From the IMG/VR virus record IMGVR_UViG_3300008262_000001: a stretch of 64,000 nt of DNA; one strand, written 5' to 3'. Every line of letters begins with the position of its first letter. Within the stretch, counting starts at the first letter, position 1. The position numbers were made by a program, and so were the translations under genes. The DNA is from a virus (lineage: Duplodnaviria > Caudoviricetes). Below, piece after piece: positions 1,652 through 55,014 of this stretch. Below the pieces are notes generated by a model. The model was not told the DNA's origin. It saw nothing but the letters and a program-made list of their open reading frames with translations, and did not search any database.

Positions 1652-1652
1652 C

Positions 1653-1901
1653 TTACCTTACATACTTATTGTTTTTAGGAACTGTATAATTTATATAGTT
1701 CTTAATATATTTCGTAGATTCAAATAGTTGATGTACTACCCTTTCAATACTGCTTAGTATCAACATTCTGGACTCATCTCCTTGTAGAATTTGATTGGAT
1801 AATGTTTTCTCAAAAATCTTACCCTCATAATCAAATCCAACATTGGATCTAATCTCGTTTTGAGATCTTATAAACTCATACCAGCTGGGTTTGTTTGTCA
1901 T
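1653..1901 (-). CDS. Small hypothetical protein in the baseplate operon
   Basis: 82-aa ORF tightly packed between the gp6-like gene and the next gene (1-2 nt gaps). Confidence 0.6.
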   Translation of the reverse strand: MTNKPSWYEFIRSQNEIRSNVGFDYEGKIFEKTLSNQILQGDESRMLILSSIERVVHQLFESTKYIKNYINYTVPKNNKYVR

Positions 1902-1903
1902 AG

Positions 1904-3601
1904 TTAGTTAGTTGTTTTTAAAGAGTTTTTAAGTATTGTATTAACTTTAGTGTTGTATGTCACAGGAACTATAGATCTAACATCTACATTGACAGAAGAT
2001 AAAGTTTGCATACTAGCTCCATAATCGTAATAAATACCATTTCTGTCATCCCATCCTCCAGAGATAACCACTATTTCATCTTTACCTATCACAATATCAC
2101 CAAATTCATCGAAACCTATATCAGGTGCATTTGGATTACCTGCTTTTGCTGCTTCATTTCTTTGTCCAACAAAATATAAAGATACTGAGTCTATTCCCTC
2201 TATGCCTTCTATAGCTGCAACAAGGTCAGATCTTGGTATTTTATCTCTTCTTCTTATGTTCAAGAAATAATCACTCAAAACGTTGGTGATTTCTGTCTTG
2301 ATTGTATCTGGATCGTTTCCTTCGAAGATCGTGATTGCAATGTTTACCACGTATTTAATAATTACTGGATCTAAAATCTTAGCTACTGTGGTAACTATTT
2401 TTTGTCCACTTTCATCAAGCAACTGATAGATTCGATCAATTTGTGGTTTTGTTAATTTGAATCTAGTCAATGGAATATCAAAATACGTCTCGTTGCTTTT
2501 GAGTGTTAATTGGATATCTGGTACTAAAATCAAATAGATTATATTGTCATCGTCGATATATTGGTCATTGAAAGTTGTAAATGCTTCAATGATTGAAAAC
2601 TGACCAAACTTTTCAAAGAAAGTAATATAGTTGGTTGGATTGGCAAGAACAAAGCTTCTAGAAGTTTTTGGAGCAATGAGTCTTGTTAAATCTACTGATT
2701 CCTGGTTAGCTCCTAATTGTGGAGCAATCGTGCAAGTTACTCCTAAGAAATCTTGAAGAGTAATTGTTCTTCCGAAAAGATCTGTACCATCGGAGTCAAA
2801 TCTGAAAATGACCTTTGAAGAATCCTCAACAAGGATATTTCCAAATGCACCTGTGGATTCTAAATAATCAACCTCAATAATAGCACCAGCAGGTGGAGGA
2901 AACCCAAAATCTACAGTTCCAAAGAAAATATCTATTCCTGAGATCAAAGAACTCTTTACTAAATAGCCTTTGGCATTTCTTGGAATGTCATATAAGGAAT
3001 CATACTTTTTCCATTCTTCCCCATTCACTCTAACAGCAACCTCAAAATTTTCTATACTTGAAGTACCACGGGAAGAAATGTTGTAACTTTGTAAACGTGT
3101 TCCATCAGCAGTATACTGGTTCGTATTAAGTGTTCCTTCCACCATAGAACAAATAATTTTCGAAGTTGCATCTAAGTTTAATCTTAGGTATTCCTGATTC
3201 AATTTGATGAGATAAGTTTTTCCGTTATTTACACATCTAATCTGGGAGTTATTCGGGAGCAGAATTGCTCCACCTCCTATTTGTTCAAATCCTTTTCCGT
3301 TCCATGTGATAACCACTTCACCCTTTGCAGAAATTGCTCTAGTTGGGTTGTGTCCAGCTAAAGTTGCAAGGCCATAAATTGAAGATTCTCTTGTTGCCTG
3401 ATTGATATTTAATTCAGTAATCGAATCCTCTATAAAAAACAGAATAAGCTGGCTAAGGTTTTCTAAAACGAAAATAATCTGTCCCCAAACTGAAGCAACA
3501 GTAAATAGCTGCTCAGACATTGAATATCTAGCTTGAATAAGGTCGAAGGTTTGACTTAATAAATCACCTATCTTCGCTCTATTTTTCTGTAATAAATCCA
3601 T
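1904..3601 (-). CDS. gp6: Baseplate wedge subunit, T4 gp6 / baseplate J-like
   Basis: 565 aa. Motifs VRVNGEEW, IFFGTVDFGFPPPAGAIIEVDYLESTGAFGN and GANQESVDLTRLIAP...LANPTNY match gp6/J-type wedge proteins; follows a gp25-like gene. Confidence 0.85.
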   Translation of the reverse strand: MDLLQKNRAKIGDLLSQTFDLIQARYSMSEQLFTVASVWGQIIFVLENLSQLILFFIEDSITELNINQATRESSIYGLATLAGHNPTRAISAKGEVVITWNGKGFEQIGGGAILLPNNSQIRCVNNGKTYLIKLNQEYLRLNLDATSKIICSMVEGTLNTNQYTADGTRLQSYNISSRGTSSIENFEVAVRVNGEEWKKYDSLYDIPRNAKGYLVKSSLISGIDIFFGTVDFGFPPPAGAIIEVDYLESTGAFGNILVEDSSKVIFRFDSDGTDLFGRTITLQDFLGVTCTIAPQLGANQESVDLTRLIAPKTSRSFVLANPTNYITFFEKFGQFSIIEAFTTFNDQYIDDDNIIYLILVPDIQLTLKSNETYFDIPLTRFKLTKPQIDRIYQLLDESGQKIVTTVAKILDPVIIKYVVNIAITIFEGNDPDTIKTEITNVLSDYFLNIRRRDKIPRSDLVAAIEGIEGIDSVSLYFVGQRNEAAKAGNPNAPDIGFDEFGDIVIGKDEIVVISGGWDDRNGIYYDYGASMQTLSSVNVDVRSIVPVTYNTKVNTILKNSLKTTN

Positions 3602-3602
3602 C

Positions 3603-3974
3603 TTAAATTATTTTAATTCCAAGTATTGGGTTGCCTTTTATTGCAAAATCAATCACACATGAGTCTCTGGTGTCTCCCTTAAAGAAACCCACAGTGAAAT
3701 CAACGTCATAGATTGAACCTGCTAAAGGAACATAGGTCATTAAATGTATTCTGATTGCCCTTTCTAAAGTTGCTTGGTCCACACCAAACTCGAAAAGTAA
3801 ACCTTCTAGATCTATCCCAAAATAAGGATCTCCAAGAACCTCTCCTGGAGTAGTCATCATGCACTGTTTAATCATACCAATTAGAATCTCAACAGAGTCA
3901 TCAGTATGGAGTTGTCCAGATTTATAATTAGGATCATCAGGATTTCTAGGATAAATTTCTGAGTACCTTGCCAT
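3603..3974 (-). CDS. gp25: Baseplate wedge subunit, gp25/GpW family
   Basis: 123 aa with CMMTTPGEVLGDPYFGIDLEGLLFE, the gp25 signature (T..GE....P.FG..L..LLFE). Confidence 0.85.
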   Translation of the reverse strand: MARYSEIYPRNPDDPNYKSGQLHTDDSVEILIGMIKQCMMTTPGEVLGDPYFGIDLEGLLFEFGVDQATLERAIRIHLMTYVPLAGSIYDVDFTVGFFKGDTRDSCVIDFAIKGNPILGIKII

Positions 3975-3981
3975 GTTGTTC

Positions 3982-3989
3982 TATATATC
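3982..3989 (-). promoter_or_regulatory. GATATATA putative late promoter (gp25-like gene)
   Basis: 7 nt upstream of ATG 3974. Confidence 0.6.
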
Positions 3990-4008
3990 AGAACTAATTA
4001 AACCAACA

Positions 4009-4368
4009 TTAATTGACATCGGCACCAACTATAAGAATTTTTTTGATTAATTGATCTTTCTTTGTCGCACTCCAGAAATCATAATTATAATTTTCCCAGC
4101 CTGGAAGCTTACTCTTCATACTAAAAATTGTGGCTTTATTCCAGTAAACATTCAGTAAATTTTTATCATTTTTCATCCAGTAATCTCCCTCGGATAGGTT
4201 AAGGACTGAAAGATTTCTAATTTCTAAATTCAAATAGAGCATTTCGGGAAAGGTTAAAAATCTTGCAGAATTTCCAAATTCTCTAATTTTTTTCTCGCTT
4301 TCTTCTAGGTTTAAGAAAAAGTACTCTGGAAATATTTCAAAGCCTCCTAAATTCAGAAAATTACTCAT
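4009..4368 (-). CDS. Hypothetical protein
   Basis: 119-aa ORF with an AATATATA motif just upstream; no recognisable domain. Confidence 0.55.
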   Translation of the reverse strand: MSNFLNLGGFEIFPEYFFLNLEESEKKIREFGNSARFLTFPEMLYLNLEIRNLSVLNLSEGDYWMKNDKNLLNVYWNKATIFSMKSKLPGWENYNYDFWSATKKDQLIKKILIVGADVN

Positions 4369-4441
4369 TCATTATATATTCAAAAAATGAAATGGCTATT
4401 TTTATTATATCTCTAGATAAGGAAAATTAATTTCAATATCT

Positions 4442-4449
4442 AATATATA
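4442..4449 (+). promoter_or_regulatory. AATATATA variant upstream of the endonuclease gene
   Basis: 18 nt upstream of ATG 4468. Confidence 0.45.
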
Positions 4450-4467
4450 AAGAAAATACACCAAGAT

Positions 4468-5442
4468 ATGGGCATACACAATTTTATAGAGGAAACTAAA
4501 AAAAGAGATTTTAAAGGGCAAGCTTTTGGACAAGTAATATCAATTATTAAAAGGGATCCAAATTTATTAGAAGAAACAATAAAGGAAACGGAATTTTTGG
4601 ATCAAGTATATCAGGATATAAGTTTATCACAAAGATTCTATCATTTGTGGTTTAACATAATGGACATCGAAAAATGCCCATATTGTGATGAACACAAAAA
4701 ATTCTCATTTACTAATAAATTTTCAATAAACCAATATAACAAAAGAGACGCTAATTATTGTGGAACTTGCTGTAAAGATCAATGTAATAAAAAATATAAT
4801 TTGGATAAAGGGAGAGAAAAATTAATTGAAAAATACGGGACTAAAAATGTATGGGAAATAGAAGGATATAGAGAAAAATTCGAGAAAAATAATATAGAAA
4901 AATATGGGGCAAAATATTACACATCAACGGAAGAATTTAAGTTTAAAACTCAGAAAACATTCGAAAAGAAATACGGGGTGCACCCAACAAAATTAGAATC
5001 AACTCAGGATAAAATTAAAAAAACAAATGTAGAAAAATATGGGTATTCTCATAGACTAAAAGATCCAATAAAATATGAGGAATATTCTAGGAAATCGTTT
5101 CAATACAAAGATTATATCTTTCAGTCAGGAAAGAAAGTAAGGATACAAGGATATGAGAATTTAGCTATAGATCTATTATTAAAAATACACGATGAAGCAA
5201 ATATAATAATAGAGGATTCTGAGATTGCTCAAGAAACTGGAAAAATAGAGTATAGTAAAGATAGAATCTATTTTCCTGACATCTTTATAAAAACGGAAAA
5301 TAAGATTATAGAGGTAAAATCTGAATATACCTATGAATGTAATTTAACAGAAAATCTAGAAAAAAAGGATGCTGTATTAGCAAAAAAAATCAATTTTGAA
5401 TTCTGGATCTTCGACGCTAAAGGGAATTTGAGAATTATATAA
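4468..5442 (+). CDS. Putative homing-type endonuclease (Cys motifs, xxEKYG repeats, C-terminal PD-(D/E)XK domain)
   Basis: CPYC and CGTCC..C motifs, repeated (I/V/F)EK(K)YG segments, C-terminal YFPDIFIKTENKIIEVKSEYT. Isolated on the strand opposite its neighbours. Confidence 0.7.
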   Translation: MGIHNFIEETKKRDFKGQAFGQVISIIKRDPNLLEETIKETEFLDQVYQDISLSQRFYHLWFNIMDIEKCPYCDEHKKFSFTNKFSINQYNKRDANYCGTCCKDQCNKKYNLDKGREKLIEKYGTKNVWEIEGYREKFEKNNIEKYGAKYYTSTEEFKFKTQKTFEKKYGVHPTKLESTQDKIKKTNVEKYGYSHRLKDPIKYEEYSRKSFQYKDYIFQSGKKVRIQGYENLAIDLLLKIHDEANIIIEDSEIAQETGKIEYSKDRIYFPDIFIKTENKIIEVKSEYTYECNLTENLEKKDAVLAKKINFEFWIFDAKGNLRII

Positions 5443-5461
5443 CTGATCCGTTATTACCCTT

Positions 5462-6241
5462 TTAATTCCATTGCAGGAACCAAGAACTTGTGTTCTCGTC
5501 TCTAATCATGTTAAGAATTTCTGTTTTTTCAGTTGTTCCTAGCGACTGGATATTGTTGTAATTAACTCTAACACCTCCTGGGAGATTGTATTCGAATGTT
5601 CCCAATAATCTACCAATGTTGATCTTTGCTTCTGCTAAGACATATCTTACAAAAAGCTCATCATCATAAAGACTTTCTTCAGGAATAGCTATGTAAGCTC
5701 TAACCCCTACATCAATACCAGTATAAAGAACTTGGGTTGTTCCTGCTTCAGTTGTGTTAGTTCTAGCAGGATCTCTACCATTAATAGTAAGTTTCTTTGT
5801 GTTTTTATTAAAATTAAAAGCAAAGCTTTCTAAAAGATATGCTTTTGCAAGGTCAAAGAAAGAATATAAAACAGTTCTATAAACAAGGTTGTCTCCAACA
5901 AATGGAGAAAGCATCAATTCTGACCCTAATAATTTGGAATCACCGAAATCCTTATCCGGTGTTCCTATAAGTCCAGATCCGTTAACTTCTCTTACGTCGT
6001 AGACTGAAACCACACAAGAAGGAAGTTGTATTTGTCTTGTTGCTCTAAATGCTGGTGCAGAAAATAATTCCCTACCAAGGACGAATATTCTATCTTCAAC
6101 AGCATATTGATAGTTGTCGTAAAAATAAGCTCTTGCCCTTTTAATGATCCTTTTGATCTCTTGATCATTTAGGTTGTAAGGCAGAGAACAAGAATGAGAA
6201 ATCTCATCTTTAACCTCTTGAATTAGATCCTGTTCAGTCAT
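5462..6241 (-). CDS. gp13: Neck/head-completion protein, T4 gp13-like
   Basis: N-terminal EQDLIQEVKDEI...NLNDQEIKRIIKRARAYF and C-terminal LGTFEYNLPGGVRVN match the gp13 pattern (...LPGG(V/I)..N). Start moved to ATG 6241 to avoid overlap with the upstream gene. Confidence 0.75.
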   Translation of the reverse strand: MTEQDLIQEVKDEISHSCSLPYNLNDQEIKRIIKRARAYFYDNYQYAVEDRIFVLGRELFSAPAFRATRQIQLPSCVVSVYDVREVNGSGLIGTPDKDFGDSKLLGSELMLSPFVGDNLVYRTVLYSFFDLAKAYLLESFAFNFNKNTKKLTINGRDPARTNTTEAGTTQVLYTGIDVGVRAYIAIPEESLYDDELFVRYVLAEAKINIGRLLGTFEYNLPGGVRVNYNNIQSLGTTEKTEILNMIRDENTSSWFLQWN

Positions 6242-6242
6242 G

Positions 6243-7682
6243 TTAATTGTTTTGTTTGAAAGATACACCAGGGATTCCAGAAGGTTTAGCATTATTATTA
6301 CTAAATCTTACTGGCTTTGATAAAGACTCACCATCATTTCTGTCAGGAAATAATCTTTTTCTAGAAGATCCTTTAAGTTTTTTGTCATCCTCAGCATCAG
6401 CTACAACTTCTGTTTCTGGAGAAATGGTAGCAAGTTTTCCGATAAATCCAGATCTTATAATTCCTCCGAAGACTTCACAATTTATTTCTTTGTCTTTATT
6501 ATCAATGTAGGTTTCATGAATAGCATTACTAAACATGATATCAGAGTGCATAATTTTTGAATTATAAACCTCGTTACCTGCAATCAAATCACAATCTTCA
6601 AGAGAGCAATTGTTCAACTTAGTAGAAAATAATCTACAGTTGAAAAGGTTGCCTGTGATTTCAGATTCAAGAATATCGTAGTCCTTAAGCAAATAAGCTT
6701 TGGCTGTTTTAATATCCTTGATTTGGAATTTTCCAAGGTTGCTATCGTAGTTCAATTGTCCCTCTTTGATTCCATTTTCAACGATCAAATCATAAAGAAC
6801 ATCCCTTATGTTTAGGAAAAAAGATCTTAGTATTTGAGGATCAGATCTTAAATCAATCATCACCTGTAAGTGTGGATAATTTTTCTGGAAAGCATCCGGA
6901 TTTATGAAGGTTGATGAACTTTTATAAATTTCGTTCAAGAATGTTTTCAATATCTTCAAATCATTCTGAGTGAATATGTTGTTAGATTGTAAAGTCTGTA
7001 TAGTGTAAGTTGCTACATAATCTATGACTTCCTTAATCTGTGTATATTTTCTCTGATAATCTTTTCCTCCTAGGTATCGTACCTCAAAATAGCCATCGCT
7101 TAATTTCAAGAAATTTATTCCCATATTCTTCTCTACTGGGACTTCAAAAAGGTTCTTATCAATAAATGACAGTGTTGATGGATCTACAAATTTATTAGAA
7201 GGAATAACCCTTTTTATAGATTTAGCATAAAGAGAGTTTGCTCTCTCAGCAAACGATTTGTAAACTATATTCTCATCAAATCCCAATACAAATTTAAGTA
7301 TATTGAGTTGGGAAACTGGAGGTATTTCCGGATAAATTGAGGTGTCAATATCGATCCCAAATTGGAAAGCACATTTTTTATCAGTGTAACCATAAAGATC
7401 GATCCACTTCAAAGTTCTGATAAGAATAGGGATAGCTTCGTAGTAAGGAAGTGGACCTGTGATTAGTTCCACCATCTTAGATCCACCAGAATAATCTGGC
7501 TCTAATTTGAAAATATCGGCAGAAGGCTTAAGCTTCGAATGATATTTGTTTAGAACTACTATTTTTTTTCCTAATTCCTTACCCAGATTTTGAGCAATTT
7601 CTTCTCTATTCAAGTTGCTATAGAACTCAAATTCAAAACCAAGCTTCACTGAATAAAAAAAATTGCTTTTATTTAAATCCAT
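6243..7682 (-). CDS. Putative amidoligase (COOH-NH2 ligase type) with C-terminal beta-solenoid-like region
   Basis: GFEFEF, KLEPDYSG, VELITGPL, CAFQF and YFEVRYLGG correspond to amidoligase motifs. C-terminal LFNCRLFSTKLNNCSLEDCDL looks like a solenoid repeat. Confidence 0.65.
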   Translation of the reverse strand: MDLNKSNFFYSVKLGFEFEFYSNLNREEIAQNLGKELGKKIVVLNKYHSKLKPSADIFKLEPDYSGGSKMVELITGPLPYYEAIPILIRTLKWIDLYGYTDKKCAFQFGIDIDTSIYPEIPPVSQLNILKFVLGFDENIVYKSFAERANSLYAKSIKRVIPSNKFVDPSTLSFIDKNLFEVPVEKNMGINFLKLSDGYFEVRYLGGKDYQRKYTQIKEVIDYVATYTIQTLQSNNIFTQNDLKILKTFLNEIYKSSSTFINPDAFQKNYPHLQVMIDLRSDPQILRSFFLNIRDVLYDLIVENGIKEGQLNYDSNLGKFQIKDIKTAKAYLLKDYDILESEITGNLFNCRLFSTKLNNCSLEDCDLIAGNEVYNSKIMHSDIMFSNAIHETYIDNKDKEINCEVFGGIIRSGFIGKLATISPETEVVADAEDDKKLKGSSRKRLFPDRNDGESLSKPVRFSNNNAKPSGIPGVSFKQNN

Positions 7683-7686
7683 GTTT

Positions 7687-7694
7687 TATATATT
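7687..7694 (-). promoter_or_regulatory. AATATATA variant upstream of the amidoligase gene
   Basis: 4 nt upstream of ATG 7682, just after a terminator. Confidence 0.5.
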
Positions 7695-7729: not shown

Positions 7730-7769
7730 AAAAAAAGAGTTTTACTTATTTATCACAAGTAAAACTCTT
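7730..7769 (-). terminator. Rho-independent terminator downstream of the S1-like gene
   Basis: Perfect 13-bp stem AAGAGTTTTACTT (7735-7747) / AAGTAAAACTCTT (7757-7769) with a 9-nt loop; A-run 7730-7736 gives a U-tract on the minus strand. Confidence 0.7.
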
Positions 7770-7794: not shown

Positions 7795-8904
7795 TTAAAC
7801 CTCCGCTAATTGTATTTTGAAGGAGGATAAGTCAACGTTCGAAACCGAGCAGTTCACAAATTGACCAACCTCATACTCTTTAATTGACTTCATTAATCTT
7901 TCTCTTTCGATCAATCCATTGAGACCATTTTCTAGCTTAACAAAAGCACCGAAAGTCTTGATTTTTGTGATTTCAGCTTTATAAGTTTTAAGCTGTGTGT
8001 CATCCCCAACTACTTCAGAAGAAGAATCTTTAAGCTCCTGAATGCTTTTAAGTTTCTCGTTTGGCTCAGTAACCGATAGAGTAATCCTTTGTGGATTCTT
8101 AATGTCAGTTACAAAGAAAGTTACGGGGTCTCCAGTCTTCAGACTTTGGAGTTTAGCAGAGTTAGCTTCGTCAAAAGGAATAATACCAGTGAATATTTCA
8201 TCCCATTCAACAAACACACCGTTACCAGAAGCACCTGTAACTATACCATCATACTTGTTAGAGAAAGAAAGTTTTTGAACCTCCCCGTCAATAATTTTTC
8301 TCAAGTACTTTTTAAATGATACTACGAAAATGTCTCTTTTCTGATCATAAATCTCAACCATTACAGTGAGTTCTTTTCCAACATAATCTGCAAAATTCAT
8401 GATTCTGTTTGCAGCAGCTAAGCTTCCGGGTAAGAAACATTGAATTCCTGAAAGATCGACCATAAATCCACCGTTACAAACTTCTTTTACTTTAACTTTG
8501 AAAGCACAATTATCATCCTTGATTGCTCTATGAAGTTCAGACTTAAGAGCTTTTTCGTATCCTGCTGAAACAGAACCATAAAAAGCACCTGAAGGATCTT
8601 TATGTACAACAACTTCTAAAACCTGTCCCTCTGACATTTCGATCAAAGGATATCCTAATTTCGTAAGACTTTTTTGTTCTTTGTTTGTATCGATAACAAT
8701 GCTTTGACCAAACTGAGTCTCCCCAAGAGCTATGCCTTTTTCTGTGTCGTATCTGCTAATAATAACTCTAGTTGAGGAGTTATTTTTTAAATCCTTACCT
8801 TCTGTTTGGTTGATATCCTGTGGTAATGATTTCTCGTATAGTTTTTCTAGTACATCTCTTTCACTTTCATCGTAATCGAAGTACGTGTAATTGTTCCTTT
8901 TCAT
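7795..8904 (-). CDS. rpsA: Ribosomal protein S1-like protein (about 4 S1/OB domains)
   Basis: S1 repeats: KVKVKEVCNGGFMVDLSGIQCFLPGS...VGKELTVMVEIYDQKRDIFVVSFK; KYDGIVTGASGNGVFVEW; YKAEITKIKTFGAFVKLENGLNGLI...YEVGQFVNCSVSNVD...KIQL. Confidence 0.85.
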   Translation of the reverse strand: MKRNNYTYFDYDESERDVLEKLYEKSLPQDINQTEGKDLKNNSSTRVIISRYDTEKGIALGETQFGQSIVIDTNKEQKSLTKLGYPLIEMSEGQVLEVVVHKDPSGAFYGSVSAGYEKALKSELHRAIKDDNCAFKVKVKEVCNGGFMVDLSGIQCFLPGSLAAANRIMNFADYVGKELTVMVEIYDQKRDIFVVSFKKYLRKIIDGEVQKLSFSNKYDGIVTGASGNGVFVEWDEIFTGIIPFDEANSAKLQSLKTGDPVTFFVTDIKNPQRITLSVTEPNEKLKSIQELKDSSSEVVGDDTQLKTYKAEITKIKTFGAFVKLENGLNGLIERERLMKSIKEYEVGQFVNCSVSNVDLSSFKIQLAEV

Positions 8905-8962
8905 TAATTTTTTGGTTTGTTGATTTTTTTAGTAGATAATTGGATTTAAATTTCCAATTTTT

Positions 8963-11900
8963 TTAATATTTTTTTACATTAAATGCTTTTTGTAATTCGG
9001 AAGGGAGTTCAGGAATTGGATAAACTGGATCAGCTGCACCTAAGAAGAATTTAAATAGTCCAGAAACATCAGCTGCACTTCTTAAAAATTCATCGATATA
9101 GACAACATAATAAGCGTTTTTAAGGCTCATTCTTCTCCATGAGGGATGGTCATCTGATAAGATGATTGGATTAATTAAGTTTATAACATTTCTTCCTAAT
9201 AATACTGTAAGTGGCCATGGAATTTTGGTAAGTATATTCGAAGACAATTCAACTGCAGGATTTACTATATTTCCAAGTAGTGGGGATTTTGGCAAACCCT
9301 TAAAGTATTTCCAGAATAAGCTGTAAACTATTCTTGCAGGAGGGGGTGCACCCATTCCAATTAGGGCTTGTTCTATCATGTCGGTAGGTCGAGCTTTTGG
9401 TATAACTGGAATTTGTGTCAGATTTAAAAAATCAGGGATATTTGGAGACTCTGGATTTAAACTCTCTCTAACTAAATTCCTAGCTATTTTCTGAATATCC
9501 TGCGGATTTAAATTTGTAAACTTAGGAGAATCTATATTATCAATTTCAGGAAGCAGTTGCTCTAATAAACCTCCATCTAATAAGGATGTTACTGTTTCAA
9601 TAATAAAATTCTTAATTATAGTACCAGGTATAGTTACCTGAATTATTCCACCTAAACCTTGTGTTTGTGAAACTTGATCTTGTTTGGGAGGGAAAACTGT
9701 AGGGATTTCAAAAGCTGAGATAGCATTACCAAAACCTCCATTAAGTGATTCCAAGCAACAATACGGACCTTCGGGATGCGGAAAATCAGAAACTAAAGGT
9801 TCTTCAAGGTCCAGAGGTCTTTCGGGATCAAATGGACCCCTTCTAGAAAGTCCTAATTTTTTCGATATTAATTTTTTTAAATCCTTAACTCTTATAACTA
9901 GAATTGGATTTTCTCCATCATACCTAACATATCTTGAGAAGTCCTCTCTTGAATATATTATTTTAGACATACCCTCCATAATCCTTAGGTACATCGCAGT
10001 AAGAAGAGGATTTTTAATTTTAATAATTTTGAGAGGAACAGGTGCAATATTTGAAACTTGAACAGGAGGAAACACAAAAGGTCCTTGTTTTTCACAATCA
10101 TCAATTATTGAAAATGCTCCCTTTCTAACTTTTTTAATTACCGAGAATTTGTTTCCCTTTAGTATAATATGGGTTATTGCAAGAGATGCTGATCTAATTT
10201 CTTTAACTAGATCTTCAAATTCTTCCTTTTCCATAGTTCTTGGATCCTTATCTAATCTCAAGAAAATTTTATTCGGATTCGAAACGTTTAAGTTGTCCAA
10301 AATATATTTGGGTGGAGAAGGTACTTTGATTAATTTAAGAACCTCCCTCATTTCGTCTTTGAAGTTAATACTGTCCCCACACTTTAACGGTACAAAACTA
10401 GCTTTCATATCCTTAAGAATTCTCAAAGACTTAACTATTCCAGGAACGTCGATTTTAAGCTTGTCTTTATCCTGTGGGTAATAAATGGATTTAGGATTAG
10501 GTATCCCTGTTTTTAAATAATCCTTTATTACAGTTTTAAGAGTTTCCTTCCTTTGTGCAATTATTAATTCCAACTGCTCTCTTTCTTCATCCACGTTTGG
10601 CTGAGGAACGTCCAGCAGTGCTGCTTTTTTGTCATACTCTTTCCTTTTTGATAAAATCGAATTCTTAAGGTCTATTTCTCTTTGTTGTGCTTCCCTTAAA
10701 GCTTCAATATTACCAGGAGGAGGAACACTGTCAAAAATTTTTGTCAGATTAGTTTGAAGATCACTAAGAATCCTATTTGGAGAATCCACGTCATCTTGTC
10801 CAAAACCTGGGAGTGGAATAAGTTTATCAGGAATACCAAAAGAAAGAATCTGCTTGATTTTTTCAAGAGGGTCTTTAAGTTCAGGATCAGATTTTCTTGG
10901 GATAAATCTTGGACCTCTGATTCCTGTTAAGAATAAAGAACTTCCAGTTATAAACTCCTTTAAGTACACTAGAGGAGTAGGCATAAAACCTCCAATAAAT
11001 GGAATGAAAATTACGATTACTCCTAAATTAAGTGGAAGTGGAATAATAATAGGATCTACTATTGTCCATATCATAGGCAAAGGGATCCTAATAAAAGGCT
11101 GTCCGTCCACAGGATTAGGTACAGGAATAGGAATAAAAGCAGGTGGTAAATAACCAACCGGCCAATATTTTAAACCAAGTCTCACTGATGGTCCTCCAGA
11201 AAGAAAGAAACTAGTTTTTTCAATTGGAGGCAATCCATTAGGATACGGCAGTAACCCAACTTTAGTTACATCTTTACAAAACTGTTTCCACCAACATCTT
11301 TGAAATATAGTTGGACAGTCCGAACTAGGTGGGGACGATGTTAGATAATTAGCATATTTAAAATCCGATCCAGCTGGACCACAGCATTGCGGTGGACAAT
11401 TAACTGAATTTCCGTTATCAACGTTTCCTCCATCGCCATCTCCAGCACCACCAGCACCCGCACATTTAAGATCAGAAAACTCCTTATCCAAAGCTTCAGG
11501 AGTAAGGGATTGCTCGTTTTCAGTTCTTTTCTGTGCTGCAATGAGCATCAGTTCTTCAATTTGCTCTATCTTTTCTTTGATGTTAGTAAAATTTTCAAAT
11601 ATTCTAATTCCGATAACATCTAATAAAGGCAAAGTGTTTCCTAGTGCATTTCCAGCCTGTCTTGCTAATCCTTTTATTTCATTGAGTTTAGGCTCGACAT
11701 AAACCTGTTTGTTTTGTTGGTATTTAGCATCCCATTTAGGTTTAAAGTTTCCATAGAAATCTGTGAAAACTTCATTAGGTTCGCCATCTGCAGTAAAAGT
11801 ACCAGGTCTAAGCTTGCTTGGATTCCTAGCATCGTTATCTCCTCTTTCCTGTGGAGAAAAGAAAAGCCAATTTGAGGCAGATTTTTCAATAAGCTCACCA

Positions 11901-14212
11901 TAAAGAATTCCCCTGTCCTCGTTAATCTGGTTTATGATAGTCTGTTTGGATTTATTCGTATTCAATACATCTTCAAAAAATCCGAAAAAATCTCCAACAT
12001 CAGGAAATCCAGTTTTAAGGTTCACAATTTCTAAGAATTGGTAAGAAGCCAAATATTCCGTGGAATATTCAGCTAATAAACCACCATTACCTGCGTGTTC
12101 GTTTCCTAGTTTGATTTTTTCTTGGTCTGGTTCAGGAACTTCCTGCAAAGGATTTGATGGCTCCCCAGTCATAGAAATTTTACCAGGTTTTTTGACATTC
12201 TTATAAGGTAAAGGATCTCCTAGATCAGACATGAAAGACACCTTAAATTGAAGTTCAGCCCTGGCCCTGTTAAATTCTGGTCTTGCAAATCGAACAGAAA
12301 ATTCTTGGATCTTGTTTATAAAAGGGTATCCATCTGTGGCATATTCCTCGTTACTGCTAGAATATGCAGAGAAAACCCTCTCATTACGTTCAAGTTGAGC
12401 ACTAGATTGTCCATATAGATCTCCTGAATCACCTGATGTTCCTATGAGCGCAGCTTCTATATCATTAAGGTCTAAATCTCTTCCAGTTCTTGATTGTAGT
12501 GTTTCGATATTAGCATTTTTAAGTGCTGTGAGTTCATTTTTTTGGTTTATTAAAGAGTCAACAAAATCTTTTTTAACCAGTATGTTCCTAATCGATTCAA
12601 TATTAGTTTCAAAAGAAGCTAATCCTTCGTCCAATCGATAAGCTTGTTTTGATTGATCAAAAGCAACCGGAGAGTTTCCTGCTTCGATATTTTCTTTAAA
12701 TAAGTCCTTTAGGTCTTTCCTTTCAAGTTCAGTATCAGCAAAGGAAAGGTCGAACAGTTTTCGCGTGAAAACTGGATTATTAGAAAGGAAGAGATTATAA
12801 ACGTTTTCTATATCAGTAACTTCTTGCTGTACTTGTTGTTCCAGAATTGGTTCTTGGTCAGTAAGGGTTAAAATTGAAATTCCAAGTTCGTAATCACTAA
12901 GAGATCCTCCATTCGAAAACGGAAATCTTAATTGCCAGGCATCTTGCAAAGACTTTTGGTATTCGAATATGATTTCATAGTGATAAAGAATTTCCTCTAG
13001 AAATCTTTCTATAACTTGCCAACGAGCTGTTTCCTTATTTTTTTTATCTATTTTGTTAGACTTTTCTAATGCAGAGTCTATACATGCTTGGATTGCATCA
13101 ACATCTACATTAGCTGCTGGTGGATCCTCCTGATCAACATTGGATCCTGTCAAGTCATTGGATCCTGTCAAGTCATTTATTCCAGAGAAGTCAAAGGCAG
13201 GTGGATCGCAGAATTCTCCAGATATCTCTTCAACATCAGATTTGGTTGATATGATGTCTCCAGTAATTGGATCTTCAGGAAGGCCTGGATCGCAATCATC
13301 ATTAATGATAGGATCATCTCCATCCGGAAAAAAATTAGCATCATATCCATCTTGTCGATTTGATGCGAATCTTCCCAGTCCTGAAAAGTTTCCATCACTG
13401 TCGAATTCCAAACCTGATCCTTCCCTTGAATCATTTTCTGGATCATTCTCTGAATCATTATCAGCATCTCCGTTTAAATCCAGATCTTTAAAATCACATT
13501 TTTTAGAATTTTTAAGCTGATCTCCTAGAACTCTATTAATATCACTGAGGGCTTGGTCATTTGTAATCGAAGGTCCTCCAAGTTTAACATGGACAACTCT
13601 TTTACCTGACATTATAAATTCCAAAGGAATTTTGTATCCAAGAATATTGAGCTCTCTTTTTTTCTTTGCACCTGAATTTGAGGGTTTTCCAAGTACTAGA
13701 GGATCAAGATTGTCGAACAAAGATTCGTTTGTCTTCTCTAAAAATTTGGGGTCCTTTTGTCCAAGAAATTTCACAATACCTGTTGAAGAAATATCCCGTT
13801 CTTTTTTGAAAGTTGGAATATTTGTTTGCACGCCCAAATCATCCACTATAAAGGTCTTTTCGTCTAAACTACCAGAGTTTTTGAGTTCTTCGTATAAGTC
13901 CCTGTTTTCAGTCTTTAATGATTCCAACAGAATTTGAGAATATAAAGAATCACCTTCATATTTACACGCCAGGTCTTCTATTTTAGAAAGAGGAATAGGT
14001 GGTGGTCCTGGCTCAAGACTTTTAATAAGTTCCTCTACTTCTTTTTCAGATTTTTCAAGTTCTTTATTGAATCCTTCCTCTGATTGTAAATCCTCGTAAG
14101 GTAAATCAATTTGTTGACCAGTAATTGTTTGTACTATTTGCTCAGTAGTAAGATTTTCAAAATCTTGACCAAGTAAATCATCTATTCTTGATTCTATACT
14201 TTCAGATGCCAT
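8963..14212 (-). CDS. Very large (1749 aa) hypothetical, probably tail/baseplate-associated protein
   Basis: Intact ORF starting 2 nt after the gp5-like stop. Acidic N-terminal part, helical middle, and a Cys-rich then Pro-rich hydrophobic segment. No family recognised. Confidence 0.75.
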   Translation of the reverse strand: MASESIESRIDDLLGQDFENLTTEQIVQTITGQQIDLPYEDLQSEEGFNKELEKSEKEVEELIKSLEPGPPPIPLSKIEDLACKYEGDSLYSQILLESLKTENRDLYEELKNSGSLDEKTFIVDDLGVQTNIPTFKKERDISSTGIVKFLGQKDPKFLEKTNESLFDNLDPLVLGKPSNSGAKKKRELNILGYKIPLEFIMSGKRVVHVKLGGPSITNDQALSDINRVLGDQLKNSKKCDFKDLDLNGDADNDSENDPENDSREGSGLEFDSDGNFSGLGRFASNRQDGYDANFFPDGDDPIINDDCDPGLPEDPITGDIISTKSDVEEISGEFCDPPAFDFSGINDLTGSNDLTGSNVDQEDPPAANVDVDAIQACIDSALEKSNKIDKKNKETARWQVIERFLEEILYHYEIIFEYQKSLQDAWQLRFPFSNGGSLSDYELGISILTLTDQEPILEQQVQQEVTDIENVYNLFLSNNPVFTRKLFDLSFADTELERKDLKDLFKENIEAGNSPVAFDQSKQAYRLDEGLASFETNIESIRNILVKKDFVDSLINQKNELTALKNANIETLQSRTGRDLDLNDIEAALIGTSGDSGDLYGQSSAQLERNERVFSAYSSSNEEYATDGYPFINKIQEFSVRFARPEFNRARAELQFKVSFMSDLGDPLPYKNVKKPGKISMTGEPSNPLQEVPEPDQEKIKLGNEHAGNGGLLAEYSTEYLASYQFLEIVNLKTGFPDVGDFFGFFEDVLNTNKSKQTIINQINEDRGILYGELIEKSASNWLFFSPQERGDNDARNPSKLRPGTFTADGEPNEVFTDFYGNFKPKWDAKYQQNKQVYVEPKLNEIKGLARQAGNALGNTLPLLDVIGIRIFENFTNIKEKIEQIEELMLIAAQKRTENEQSLTPEALDKEFSDLKCAGAGGAGDGDGGNVDNGNSVNCPPQCCGPAGSDFKYANYLTSSPPSSDCPTIFQRCWWKQFCKDVTKVGLLPYPNGLPPIEKTSFFLSGGPSVRLGLKYWPVGYLPPAFIPIPVPNPVDGQPFIRIPLPMIWTIVDPIIIPLPLNLGVIVIFIPFIGGFMPTPLVYLKEFITGSSLFLTGIRGPRFIPRKSDPELKDPLEKIKQILSFGIPDKLIPLPGFGQDDVDSPNRILSDLQTNLTKIFDSVPPPGNIEALREAQQREIDLKNSILSKRKEYDKKAALLDVPQPNVDEEREQLELIIAQRKETLKTVIKDYLKTGIPNPKSIYYPQDKDKLKIDVPGIVKSLRILKDMKASFVPLKCGDSINFKDEMREVLKLIKVPSPPKYILDNLNVSNPNKIFLRLDKDPRTMEKEEFEDLVKEIRSASLAITHIILKGNKFSVIKKVRKGAFSIIDDCEKQGPFVFPPVQVSNIAPVPLKIIKIKNPLLTAMYLRIMEGMSKIIYSREDFSRYVRYDGENPILVIRVKDLKKLISKKLGLSRRGPFDPERPLDLEEPLVSDFPHPEGPYCCLESLNGGFGNAISAFEIPTVFPPKQDQVSQTQGLGGIIQVTIPGTIIKNFIIETVTSLLDGGLLEQLLPEIDNIDSPKFTNLNPQDIQKIARNLVRESLNPESPNIPDFLNLTQIPVIPKARPTDMIEQALIGMGAPPPARIVYSLFWKYFKGLPKSPLLGNIVNPAVELSSNILTKIPWPLTVLLGRNVINLINPIILSDDHPSWRRMSLKNAYYVVYIDEFLRSAADVSGLFKFFLGAADPVYPIPELPSELQKAFNVKKY
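13140..13175. repeat. 18-nt tandem duplication inside the 1749-aa gene (NDLTGS x2)
   Basis: TTGGATCCTGTCAAGTCA occurs at 13140-13157 and 13158-13175. Confidence 0.9.
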
Positions 14213-14214
14213 TG

Positions 14215-15090
14215 TTATCCTCCTGTTGCTCCTGTTCCTCCAGTAGCAGAACTAGGTAAAGATACAGGTTGGCTATTTTGTGCTGGGACTGTAGGAAGGT
14301 CTGGTAAGTTTTCCCTTGTTACCCTTACTGTCTGACTAGTTGCAAGCTGTTCAAAGCTTTGTGCTAATGTGGAACTTACACCAGGTGTTACTGGAAGTTT
14401 AGCATCTACTGCGATGGCTAACTTCTTCAGAAAATCCCAAAGAGGCTCAGCACAAATCGCTGAGAAAACCGGGGAATGTCCGAGGTTGGTAGTTTTTCCG
14501 TCCATCCAAACTTCCTCAGAAGAATGCTTAATTCTAGTAACTGCAGTATTCTCTATCTCTTGGTCAGCATACTTAGTGATTTTACCTCCTTTTAGCTCAA
14601 TAGACGAAGTATCGTCCGCATGAGTGATCAATATCGAGTTATCGTTTCGAATGATGATTTTGGACTCCTTTAGATCGATTACAAGACCTTTCTCTACAGT
14701 GTAATAAATTTTTAATCTCTCGATTCCATCATAAATAAGGGAATGAGCTCCATCGTAACTTGCCCTGATTTCATCGATGAGATCTGGAGAAAGTTCCTGC
14801 ACTGCTTTGTATTCTGGACTGTAATAGTTGCCATTATTGAATTGGACGTGTACAACTGAACCTAATTTAGGAACAGACATTCTTCCAGATCCTCCACCTA
14901 GACCATAACTCATATCAAATCTTTGGTGTGACCAGGGCAAATCCTCATCACCAACCCCATCATAAACTCCGAATATCCTAATTTTTGCTCTGCCTTTAAA
15001 TTCTGGATCTTTGTTGTCAATTACAACACCTAGAAAGTGAGCAACTTCAATATTACTATCAATTAAATGTTCTCTTGATATCAGTGTCAT
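14215..15090 (-). CDS. gp5: Baseplate central spike, gp5/VgrG OB-fold family, no lysozyme domain
   Basis: FLGVVIDNKDPEFKGRAKIRIFG, LPWS and SVPKLGSVVHVQFNNGNYYSPEY form the gp5 OB-fold, followed by short beta-strand repeats. Confidence 0.85.
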   Translation of the reverse strand: MTLISREHLIDSNIEVAHFLGVVIDNKDPEFKGRAKIRIFGVYDGVGDEDLPWSHQRFDMSYGLGGGSGRMSVPKLGSVVHVQFNNGNYYSPEYKAVQELSPDLIDEIRASYDGAHSLIYDGIERLKIYYTVEKGLVIDLKESKIIIRNDNSILITHADDTSSIELKGGKITKYADQEIENTAVTRIKHSSEEVWMDGKTTNLGHSPVFSAICAEPLWDFLKKLAIAVDAKLPVTPGVSSTLAQSFEQLATSQTVRVTRENLPDLPTVPAQNSQPVSLPSSATGGTGATGG

Positions 15091-22174: not shown

Positions 22175-22178
22175 ACTG

Positions 22179-22186
22179 TATATACC
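22179..22186 (-). promoter_or_regulatory. GGTATATA variant upstream of the baseplate operon
   Basis: 4 nt upstream of ATG 22174. Confidence 0.45.
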
Positions 22187-51086: not shown

Positions 51087-51094
51087 TATATATC
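51087..51094 (-). promoter_or_regulatory. GATATATA (TTCAAGATATATAA context)
   Basis: After the capsid terminator, 16 nt upstream of ATG 51070. Confidence 0.7.
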
Positions 51095-55006: not shown

Positions 55007-55014
55007 TATATATC
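55007..55014 (-). promoter_or_regulatory. GATATATA (TTCAAGATATATAA context) upstream of the protease/capsid operon
   Basis: 13 nt upstream of ATG 54993. Confidence 0.7.

What the first reader, a model, noticed from the sequence alone, without database searches (positions are those of the whole stretch)
7795..8904. Phage-encoded ribosomal protein S1 homolog at the end of the tail/baseplate operon
Seen: about four S1 domains in 369 aa (shorter than six-domain RpsA), 58 nt downstream of the 1749-aa gene and followed by a terminator. Known: S1 recruits A/U-rich leaders to the 30S subunit, and S1 homologs have been reported in some huge phages. Inference: it is expressed late and may redirect ribosomes to the short, AU-rich, SD-poor late leaders seen here.
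Basis: partly seen in the sequence, partly recalled or inferred. Interest (0 to 1): 0.7.

Follow-up and report, generated by a model that had tools for sequence, protein, structure and literature searches.

The report
Phage copy of ribosomal protein S1
A large freshwater phage carries a shortened, four-domain version of ribosomal protein S1 that keeps the parts bacteria use to dock S1 on the ribosome; such genes were already reported in huge phages, and none has been tested at the bench.

Summary
Window 7795-8904 (-) encodes a 369-aa protein under strong purifying selection. It has an N-terminal helix and four S1/OB domains. It starts 58 nt after the 1749-aa gene and is followed by a strong intrinsic terminator.

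The domains are of the ribosomal kind. Domain 2 matches OB2 of cellular bS1 in 29 of 29 bacteria, and domain 1 matches OB1 weakly. The last two are ordinary RNA-binding S1 domains. Foldseek's best hits are E. coli bS1 on the 30S subunit. A modelled complex with Flavobacterium uS2 passed its controls; it resembles a solved complex, so the pass may be from memory.

The protein falls far below the rpsA thresholds. It belongs to a phage-only clade that includes the 'possible rpS1' genes of published huge phages and Lak megaphages. In this clade the gene nearly always sits in one place in the baseplate-hub/neck block.

The window shows no Shine-Dalgarno enrichment. The N-terminus resembles bS1 of Bacteroidota and Ignavibacteriota, which points to a host of that group.

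Ribosome binding, timing and effect on translation are inferred. The kind is already published (Al-Shayeb 2020), and this scan noted the same thing on another genome (e1-5390835, e1-5390838). Verdict: a real gene and a new member of a known kind.

The parts
7795..8904 (-). Coding sequence of the 369-aa phage bS1-like protein (P0001).
   Evidence: dN/dS 0.05-0.08.
8824..8868 (-). N-terminal helix region (aa 13-27, ...DVLEKLYEKSL). It is colinear with the uS2-binding helix of E. coli bS1 (QLFEESL).
   Evidence: Helix 13-23 in the model. Local alignment to E. coli residues 7-15. Residues 19, 22-23 and 25-28 touch uS2 in the modelled complex.
8572..8778 (-). S1/OB domain 1 (aa 43-111), a weakly OB1-like, diverged anchoring domain.
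   Evidence: Its family HMM scores best on host OB1 in 21/29 cellular bS1, with a 3-bit margin. The D1-D2 pair superposes on ribosome-bound E. coli bS1 with TM 0.76.
8317..8502 (-). S1/OB domain 2 (aa 135-196) with the bS1 OB2 signature GGFxVxLxGIxCFLPGSL. It is the most conserved domain of the family.
   Evidence: 29/29, median margin 32.8 bits. F147 and F157 are kept, matching E. coli F120 and F130.
8074..8256 (-). S1 domain 3 (aa 217-277), of the RNA-binding type (like host D3-D5). In this subclade two canonical positions are changed (N228, P243).
7801..7986 (-). S1 domain 4 (aa 307-368), a canonical RNA-binding S1 domain (TFGAFVKL).
   Evidence: Best Pfam stretch 307-366.
7735..7769 (-). 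Intrinsic terminator after the S1 gene: a 15-bp stem followed by T7.
   Evidence: The same arrangement is found in L009, L012, L015 and L016 but is absent in L001, L011, L013 and L014.
8905..8962 (-). 58-nt A-rich spacer without a Shine-Dalgarno site. It holds an invariant TGGAAAT (8950-8956) and nACTAa 17 nt further on.
7687..7694 (-). AATATATA late-type promoter-like box, 4 nt before the start of the next gene (6243-7682). It marks a new transcription unit after the terminator.
22178..22185 (-). GTATATAC box, the nearest late-type box upstream on this strand. It is the putative start of a 7-gene unit (22174 to 7795) that ends with the S1 gene.
   Evidence: No other box lies between 22178 and 7694 on the - strand.
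8963..14212 (-). Upstream 1749-aa gene. It occupies the variable-length slot (422-1749 aa in relatives) between the baseplate hub gene and the S1 gene.

Best explanation
The gene encodes a phage-lineage version of ribosomal protein bS1. It keeps the docking half of bS1: an N-terminal helix, OB1, the connecting helix and OB2. It then has two RNA-binding S1 domains where its likely hosts have four. The most likely mechanism is as follows. The protein is made late in infection. It docks on uS2 at the mRNA exit of the host 30S subunit, in competition with or in place of the six-domain host bS1. There it helps load the phage's A-rich mRNAs, which lack Shine-Dalgarno sites. The host is probably of the Bacteroidota/Ignavibacteriota group. 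Shown here: the domain identities, the phage-only clade, the fixed gene position and the lack of Shine-Dalgarno sites. Inferred: the docking, the timing, the effect on translation and the host.
For: All top NCBIfam hits are rpsA models. The best sequence hits among solved structures are bS1 chains. Foldseek's five best hits are E. coli bS1 on ribosomes (9gut_B E 1.2e-24), and the ribosome-bound D1-D2 fragment 9guq_B gives TM 0.76.

The family's domain-2 HMM picks OB2 in 29/29 cellular bS1 with a 32.8-bit median margin. Domain 1 picks OB1 in 21/29 (E. coli alone).

One local alignment runs colinearly from the E. coli helix (Q7) to the end of OB2. Residues that D'Urso 2023 (PMC10123108) names as contacts have counterparts here: F9 becomes Y23, F79 becomes F108, and F120 and F130 become F147 and F157. 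F157 is F in 49 of 50 family members.

The modelled complex of aa 1-115 with Flavobacterium johnsoniae uS2 scored ipSAE 0.77, against 0.00 for the best of 3 controls. That mark was reached by 58 of 80 solved complexes and 2 of 110 mismatched pairs. The runs agree in at least 96% of contacts and the partner's pLDDT is at least 80. It uses the helix, OB1 loop 2 (65-70) and residues 103-109.

The N-terminal peptide of this subclade scores best against bS1 N-termini of Algoriphagus (z 3.9-9.5) and Melioribacteraceae (z 2.9-5.9), and z is below 2 for E. coli, Firmicutes and CPR bacteria. An N-terminal FNWDxYE motif is shared by 22 of 116 family representatives and 4 of 6 Bacteroidota bS1, and by none of the other bacteria sampled.

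There is no Shine-Dalgarno enrichment: 5 of 60 genes carry a core motif, against 8.4 +/- 3.1 by chance. The gene is the last of a unit that starts at a late-type box. Distant relatives have such a box directly upstream of the gene. dN/dS is 0.05-0.08.
Against: Scores are far below every rpsA cut-off (89 versus 577 bits). The Zn-pocket lysine K43 of E. coli bS1 is Q67 here and is not conserved in the family, and F5 is L19. OB1 is the least conserved domain, and its assignment rests on a 3-bit margin.

In this subclade domain 3 has lost two canonical RNA-binding positions. The uS2 model resembles a solved E. coli complex, so its pass may be from memory, and uS2 came from a stand-in host.

The RATATATA boxes end 3-21 nt before start codons. 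First genes of late units would therefore have almost no leader for an S1 protein to hold. No phage S1 protein has been shown to bind a ribosome in the papers read.
Confidence: 0.5

Rival explanations
1. It is an off-ribosome RNA-binding protein. It would use its S1 domains as an RNA chaperone or mRNA protector, or as a cofactor of a phage RNA enzyme. Host S1 serves the T4 RegB nuclease and the Q-beta replicase in this way. It would not dock on the ribosome.
For: The S1 domain is widespread outside the ribosome, which is why Mizuno 2019 left S1 out of their ribosomal-protein survey. [quoted passage not shown] Host S1 D1-D2 also binds the Q-beta replicase, and 4q7j and 4r71 are among the structural hits. 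K43 is not kept and OB1 is weakly conserved.
Against: The most conserved part is the OB2 signature, which is known only from ribosomal bS1. The N-terminal helix and OB1 are kept and are colinear with bS1. The N-terminus resembles that of bS1 from one bacterial group in particular, which suggests it co-adapts with a host partner.
Confidence: 0.2
2. It is a competitive blocker. It would dock on uS2 like bS1 but, with only two RNA-binding domains, fail to unfold structured host leaders. This would shut down host translation while short-leader phage mRNAs escape.
For: The docking half is kept, with two RNA-binding domains against four in the six-domain bS1 of Bacteroidota (590-715 aa). Domain 3 of this subclade lacks two canonical RNA-binding residues. 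Late-type boxes end 3-21 nt before start codons, which implies very short leaders. From my own knowledge, N-terminal S1 fragments inhibit translation of leadered but not leaderless mRNAs in E. coli (Byrgazov and co-workers); I did not check this in a paper here.
Against: Across the family, domains 3 and 4 keep the RNA-binding signature (F231 invariant, R/K273 in 49/50, K/R363 in 47/50), and a pure blocker would not need it. Natural four-domain bS1 proteins exist in Firmicutes, CPR bacteria and Elusimicrobia. Most genes in the window are internal cistrons with upstream RNA.
Confidence: 0.15
3. It is a virion-associated protein. It would be assembled with the tail hub and tape-measure region, or otherwise packaged, and delivered with the DNA so that it acts on ribosomes or RNA before any phage gene is expressed.
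For: The gene keeps one place (hub, variable 422-1749-aa protein, S1, a protein of about 475 aa, gp13-like) in lineages down to 29% identity, including the 462-kb phage LR756500. It is co-transcribed with, or sits under late-type boxes among, virion genes.
Against: Conserved gene order and late timing do not show packaging. One lineage has the gene next to a PIF1 helicase instead. No structural-protein family matches the protein, and PHROGs gave nothing. No virion proteome exists for any member, since only uncultured phages matched.
Confidence: 0.08

Closest known systems
'Possible rpS1' genes of huge phages (Al-Shayeb et al. 2020, PMC7162821) and the S1-like genes of Lak megaphages
   Same: They fall in the same phage-only clade in the helix-to-OB2 tree (SH-aLRT 99; 50 family members plus LR756500, LR756501, LR756504, LR745206 and Lak-A2). 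They have the same length class (357-378 aa). In LR756500 the gene has the same place in the hub/neck block. The genomes have few or no Shine-Dalgarno sites.
   Different: Identity to the window protein is only 25-33%. The phage here is smaller; relatives sit on contigs of 248-321 kb. It comes from lake and freshwater samples. This subclade lacks the N-terminal FNW motif that Lak and others carry.
Bacterial ribosomal protein bS1 (rpsA; E. coli b0911; NCBIfam TIGR00717)
   Same: It has the N-terminal helix, OB1, the connecting helix and OB2 in the same order, followed by RNA-binding S1 domains. The OB2 aromatic patch F120/F130 is kept. It is modelled on the same face of uS2.
   Different: It has four domains, not six. 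It scores 89 bits against a 577-bit cut-off. K43 is replaced by Q67. It has an N-terminal extension of about 12 residues before the helix that is modelled against uS2 (residues 5-8). It is encoded by a phage, in a clade separate from all 29 cellular bS1 sampled.
Natural four-domain bS1 of Firmicutes, CPR bacteria and Elusimicrobia (e.g. NCBIfam NF005208, 391 positions)
   Same: They share the same length and domain count. The alignment to NF005208 covers aa 90-367. Four-domain forms of 371-434 aa were recovered from Staphylococcus, Saccharibacteria, Elusimicrobia and Peribacteria.
   Different: The score is below that model's cut-off too (83.7 versus 368 bits). These cellular forms do not group with the phage clade. 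Their N-termini do not resemble the phage N-terminus (z below 1).
bS1 of the jumbo cyanophage PhiMa05 (PMC13157829)
   Same: It is a phage-encoded bS1 that its authors propose replaces the host protein.
   Different: According to that paper, the PhiMa05 gene groups with bS1 of Vampirovibrio-like bacteria and sits beside other ribosomal-protein genes, so it looks like a recent capture. The family here is an old phage-specific lineage set among tail genes. I did not compare the sequences directly.

Membership tests
Ribosomal protein bS1 (rpsA) | Tandem array of four to six S1/OB domains | tested here: met
   The AlphaFold2 model shows four OB domains. Pfam S1 scores E 1.2e-18.
Ribosomal protein bS1 (rpsA) | Score above the curated cut-off of an rpsA equivalog model | tested here: not met
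   TIGR00717 gives 89.3 bits against 577. NF005208 gives 83.7 against 368. All eleven other rpsA models are also far below their cut-offs.
Ribosomal protein bS1 (rpsA) | OB2-type second domain (GGFxVxLxGxxAFLPGSL, aromatic patch F120/F130) | tested here: met
   The family domain-2 HMM scores best on OB2 in 29/29 cellular bS1, with a median margin of 32.8 bits. F147 and F157 are conserved.
Ribosomal protein bS1 (rpsA) | OB1-type first domain | tested here: inconclusive
   It scores best on OB1 in 21/29, but with a 3-bit margin. The D1-D2 pair superposes on ribosome-bound bS1 with TM 0.71-0.76.
Ribosomal protein bS1 (rpsA) | N-terminal helix that stacks on uS2 (E. coli F5, F9, Q7, E10) | tested here: inconclusive
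   A helix lies at aa 13-23. KLYEKSL aligns with QLFEESL, so F9 becomes Y23, E10 becomes E24 and F5 becomes L19. These residues touch uS2 in the model. This rests on a model only.
Ribosomal protein bS1 (rpsA) | Loop-2 lysine (E. coli K43) in the Zn pocket of uS2 | tested here: not met
   K43 aligns with Q67, and the family column is Q/E/L/I/S. Loop 65-70 still contacts uS2 204-210 in the model.
Ribosomal protein bS1 (rpsA) | Physical presence on the 30S subunit | not testable with these tools
   There is only a modelled complex with a stand-in uS2. No RNA or proteome data were found.
Phage 'possible rpS1' lineage of huge phages (Al-Shayeb 2020) | Multi-S1-domain protein encoded in a large phage genome, grouping with the published phage genes | tested here: met
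   The window is a phage. All phage sequences form one clade with SH-aLRT 99. Relatives lie on contigs up to 321 kb.
Phage 'possible rpS1' lineage of huge phages (Al-Shayeb 2020) | Genome with few or no Shine-Dalgarno sites | tested here: met
   5 of 60 genes have a core motif, against 8.4 +/- 3.1 by chance, within this window only.
Non-ribosomal S1 proteins (Tex, PNPase, RNase R/II, CvfB, GSP13/CvfD) | S1 domain joined to the family's own catalytic or accessory domains, or best match to those families | tested here: not met
   No other Pfam domain was found. PNPase, RNase R and GSP13 models match only domain 4, and weakly (E 1e-8 to 7e-12 against 2e-25 for rpsA). CvfB 3go5 gives TM 0.17-0.21.

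The most novel reading that the evidence does not exclude
The S1-like protein is loaded into the virion with the hub and tape-measure proteins next to which its gene has stayed across this whole phage clade. It would be injected with the DNA, so that host ribosomes are re-fitted with a phage S1 before the first phage gene is transcribed.
Probability: 0.08. Interest if true: 0.85.

Novelty: new member of a known kind. Interest (0 to 1): 0.4.

Why it matters
Whether phage 'ribosomal' S1 genes really act on the ribosome has been open since they were reported in 2020. The S1 domain is too common for annotation alone to settle it.

This work narrows the question in three ways. The phage genes form one old lineage, and that lineage keeps the docking half of bS1. 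Its N-terminus looks like that of bS1 from Bacteroidota and Ignavibacteriota, the first of which initiates translation without Shine-Dalgarno pairing and is thought to lean on bS1. The gene is also a fixed part of the tail-hub gene block.

That gives concrete constructs and partners to test: aa 1-115 against uS2, and 30S subunits of Flavobacterium johnsoniae. If the protein does replace host bS1, it would be a clear case of a virus re-equipping the ribosome's mRNA-catching arm.

Tried and rejected
- No whole genome is held for the window.
- Megablast of 10 kb against phage records found nothing.
- PHROGs has no family for the protein.
- A pattern scan of 185,579 prokaryote species genomes found no close relative.
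- Plasmid records gave only actinobacterial rpsA.
- Expression could not be tested: no RNA holder was listed among the sequencing runs, so no reads were laid.
- The conserved spacer before the gene has no consensus fold. Its TGGAAAT-N17-ACTA pattern is not enriched in the window. Rfam finds nothing in the window or around the gene.
- The related 248-kb record G001 has no bS21 gene and no second S1-domain gene. It is 85% complete, so absence is not shown.
- The tree does not resolve which bacterial group the phage clade came from. Its nearest row is a long Sulfuricurvum branch, which I do not trust, and Bacteroidota form their own clade elsewhere. The Bacteroidota link therefore rests on the N-terminal peptide and motif only.
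- I rejected a cellular origin for the entry named 'MAG: 30S ribosomal protein S1 [Spirochaetia bacterium]'. Its 5.5-kb contig has the phage gene order.
- I considered and rejected CvfB, Tex and PNPase.

Full report
THE OBSERVATION

The minus-strand ORF 7795-8904 starts with ATG and encodes 369 residues. Pfam finds the S1 domain (E 1.2e-18, three scored stretches). An AlphaFold2 model built on 50 family members is confident, with mean pLDDT 85.5. It shows a short helix (aa 13-23) and four OB folds at about aa 43-111, 135-196, 217-277 and 307-368, with helical linkers between them.

The gene starts 58 nt after the stop of the 1749-aa gene (8963-14212). It is followed by a 15-bp hairpin and a run of seven T at 7769-7735. 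This hairpin has dG -22.3 kcal/mol and z -4.6, and none of 200 shuffles folds as well. Against relatives, dN/dS is 0.05-0.08. The description is therefore correct and the gene is real.

CONTEXT

The window is part of a large T4-like phage. It holds a Gp23-type capsid protein and a prohead protease. It also holds a baseplate hub gene (14215-15090) and a baseplate wedge gene (1904-3601).

No whole genome is held for the window. Relatives of the S1 gene lie on viral contigs of 248-321 kb. The DNA itself occurs in lake and freshwater metagenomes.

An eight-base box, RATATATA, ends 3-21 nt before start codons in 13 of its 16 occurrences. It precedes the virion gene units. I read it as a late promoter by analogy with TATAAATA of T4; this is inference. 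On the minus strand there is no such box between 22178 and 7694. The S1 gene is therefore the last of seven genes in a putative unit running from 22174 to 7795, closed by the terminator. The next gene has its own box 4 nt before its ATG.

However, the gene lies inside the structural block, because a gp13-like neck gene and baseplate genes follow it. In some close relatives the terminator and the box are missing and the next gene follows at once.

WHAT KIND OF S1 PROTEIN IT IS

- Sequence matches. All the best NCBIfam matches are rpsA models (2e-25 and weaker). Models for GSP13/CvfD, PNPase and RNase R match only the last domain, and far more weakly. Among solved structures the best sequence hits are bS1 chains.
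- Structural matches. The best structural hits are E. coli bS1 on the ribosome. The ribosome-bound D1-D2 fragment superposes with TM 0.71-0.76, while CvfB gives TM about 0.2.
- Domain assignment. I cut the family alignment into its four domains, built an HMM from each, and scored them on the domains of E. coli bS1 and of 29 cellular bS1 from many phyla. Domain 2 picks host OB2 in 29 of 29, with a median margin of 32.8 bits. Domain 1 picks OB1 in 21 of 29, with a margin of only 3 bits. Domains 3 and 4 pick the RNA-binding domains D3-D5, mostly D4.
- Colinearity. A single local alignment runs from the N-terminal helix of E. coli bS1 (QLFEESL against KLYEKSL) through OB1 and the linker helix to the end of OB2.
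- Contact residues. Of the residues that D'Urso et al. 2023 name as contacts, F9, E10, F79, F120 and F130 have like counterparts: Y23, E24, F108, F147 and F157. F5 is L19. The Zn-pocket lysine K43 is Q67 and is not conserved in the family.
- Conservation. Domains 2 and 3 are the most conserved parts of the family. The N-terminus and domain 1 are the least conserved.

Even so, the protein is not an rpsA equivalog by score: 89 bits against a 577-bit cut-off.

THE FAMILY

An exhaustive profile-free search found 360 clusters (at 50% identity) with E of 1e-10 or better. Nearly all are 340-430 aa. The word-indexed search found more than 100 clusters at 48-92% identity, several auto-named 'ribosomal protein S1'.

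I built a tree of the helix-to-OB2 region. In it, 50 family members and the S1-like genes of five published phages form one clade (SH-aLRT 99, long stem), apart from all cellular bS1. The five are LR756500, LR756501, LR756504 and LR745206 of Al-Shayeb 2020, and Lak-A2. Where this clade attaches among bacteria is not resolved.

One database entry named as a Spirochaetia MAG protein sits on a 5.5-kb contig with the phage gene order. It is a mis-binned phage fragment.

FIXED GENE POSITION

The same order is found in every lineage below:

hub gene, then a protein of very variable length (422-1749 aa), then S1, then a protein of about 475 aa, then a gp13-like gene, followed by gp25-like and baseplate-J-like genes.

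- Relatives at 69% and 46% identity.
- Relatives at 36-38% identity.
- A relative at 33% identity.
- The 462-kb phage LR756500 at 29% identity, where a transposase and a homing endonuclease have been inserted nearby.

One lineage has the gene next to a PIF1 helicase and a NUMOD3-like gene instead. I did not see this fixed position reported in the papers I read.

Three distant relatives have a RATATATA box 36-48 nt before the S1 start. This supports late expression of the family. The window's own subclade has a different element at that place: an invariant TGGAAAT with nACTAa 17 nt later. It has no consensus fold and no other copies in the window. I leave it unexplained.

HOST AND DOCKING

The window shows no enrichment of Shine-Dalgarno motifs. 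Five of 60 genes have a core motif at -20 to -4, against 8.4 +/- 3.1 for random sites, and the leaders are A-rich.

The N-termini of Bacteroidota bS1 carry a motif, FNWDxYE. It is also present in 22 of 116 full-length family representatives, including Lak-A2, and in none of the other bacteria sampled.

The window's subclade lacks this motif. Its first 34 residues nevertheless score best against the bS1 N-termini of Algoriphagus (z 3.9-9.5) and Melioribacteraceae (z 2.9-5.9), and not against E. coli, Dyella, Staphylococcus, Saccharibacteria or spirochaetes. Together with the Prevotella host recorded for Lak phages, this points to a host of the Bacteroidota/Ignavibacteriota group. It is not proof. 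Notes from other windows of this genome mention Bacteroidota-type promoters and a Bacteroidales-like tmRNA; I did not check them.

A modelled complex of aa 1-115 with F. johnsoniae uS2 gave the following:

- Score: ipSAE 0.77, against 0.00 for the best of three controls.
- Calibration: that mark was reached by 58 of 80 solved complexes and 2 of 110 mismatched pairs.
- Run quality: the runs agree in at least 96% of contacts, and the partner's pLDDT is at least 80.
- Interface on the phage protein: the helix (19, 22-23, 25-28), OB1 loop 2 (65-70), residues 103-109, and the extra N-terminal residues 5-8.
- Interface on uS2: residues 7-8, 16-20, 29-39 and 204-210.

By number, these uS2 residues are the patches that E. 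coli uS2 uses, but I did not align the two uS2 proteins. An E. coli bS1-uS2 complex is solved, so the pass may reflect likeness to it and not show that this copy binds. No Bacteroidota bS1-uS2 structure exists, since both proteins were missing from the F. johnsoniae ribosome map.

HOW IT MOST LIKELY WORKS

My best reading, at about 50%, is that the protein is a phage substitute for bS1. It would dock on uS2 at the mRNA exit. It would use OB2 and two RNA-binding domains to load A-rich phage mRNAs that lack Shine-Dalgarno sites, late in infection. In the likely host group, bS1-mRNA contacts are thought to matter most.

Three rivals remain:

- An off-ribosome RNA-binding role, at about 20%.
- A docking blocker that shuts off host translation, at about 15%.
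- A virion-delivered protein, at about 8%.

If transcription starts a few bases after the RATATATA boxes, as in T4, the first genes of late units have almost no leader for an S1 protein to hold. Any help would then go mainly to internal cistrons.

WHAT IS KNOWN AND HOW NEW THIS IS

Al-Shayeb et al. 2020 reported 'possible rpS1' genes in huge phages. They noted that these phages rarely have Shine-Dalgarno sites, and they proposed a role in initiation 'on or off the ribosome'. Mizuno et al. 2019 set S1 aside as ambiguous. A 2026 paper reports a host-like bS1 in the cyanophage PhiMa05. I found no bench test of any phage S1.

The present gene is thus a new member of a known kind. This scan had already noted the same kind of gene on another genome. 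The parts I did not find in the papers read are:

- the single phage-only clade;
- the domain mapping (docking half plus two RNA-binding domains);
- the N-terminus resembling that of Bacteroidota and Ignavibacteriota bS1;
- the modelled uS2 interface;
- the deep conservation of the gene's place in the tail-hub block.

Noticed in passing
window, 13 sites, e.g. 7687-7694, 22178-22185, 55007-55014, 51087-51094 (all - strand): The box RATATATA ends 3-21 nt before start codons in 13 of its 16 occurrences and precedes virion gene units. It looks like this phage's late promoter. If the T4 spacing applies, several late mRNAs would be leaderless or nearly so.
   Followed up: partly
window 8930-8956 (- strand): An invariant TGGAAAT, with nACTAa 17 nt later, lies in the spacer before the S1 start. 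It is kept in 8 relatives whose spacers are otherwise diverged. It has no consensus fold and no other copies in the window. It may be the gene's own promoter of another class, or an operator.
   Followed up: partly
window 8963-14212 (-); L140 8675-9943; L128 6382-7656: The gene between the hub gene and the S1 gene varies from 422 to 1749 aa among relatives that are otherwise colinear. The 424-aa form in LR756500 weakly matches a tape-measure family (phrog_305, E 6e-7).
   Followed up: partly
window 4009-5442: A plus-strand DUF7487 gene (4468-5442) and a 119-aa gene (4009-4368) lie between the gp13-like and gp25-like genes. They are absent at that place in relatives L001 and L140, so they look like an insertion into the structural block.
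   Followed up: no
window 42806-44314 (+): This gene is a RimK-like ATP-grasp ligase fused to a Zn_protease (PF05618) domain. RimK modifies ribosomal protein bS6, one of the proteins that hide the anti-Shine-Dalgarno sequence in Bacteroidota. It would be a second possible link to the ribosome. Another agent of this scan has already followed it up.
   Followed up: no
L139 (GCA_009923845.1, RFSS01000037.1), 1-5520: A contig filed under a Spirochaetia MAG, whose protein is named '30S ribosomal protein S1', carries the phage gene order (large protein, S1, 480-aa protein, gp13-like). It is most likely a mis-binned phage fragment.
   Followed up: yes
L128 (LR756500.1) 2698-3903 and 13315-14520; the contig of P0006: Mobile genes sit around the S1 gene in some phages. 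LR756500 has a transposase and a homing endonuclease inside the hub/neck block. In the one lineage where S1 lies next to a PIF1 helicase, a NUMOD3-like gene directly follows it.
   Followed up: no
Bacteroidota bS1 loci L110, L111, L113, L114 (N-termini): bS1 of Bacteroidota carries an N-terminal FNWDxYE motif before the uS2-binding helix. Part of the phage family shares it, and the other phyla sampled lack it. I found no description of it in the papers read.
   Followed up: partly
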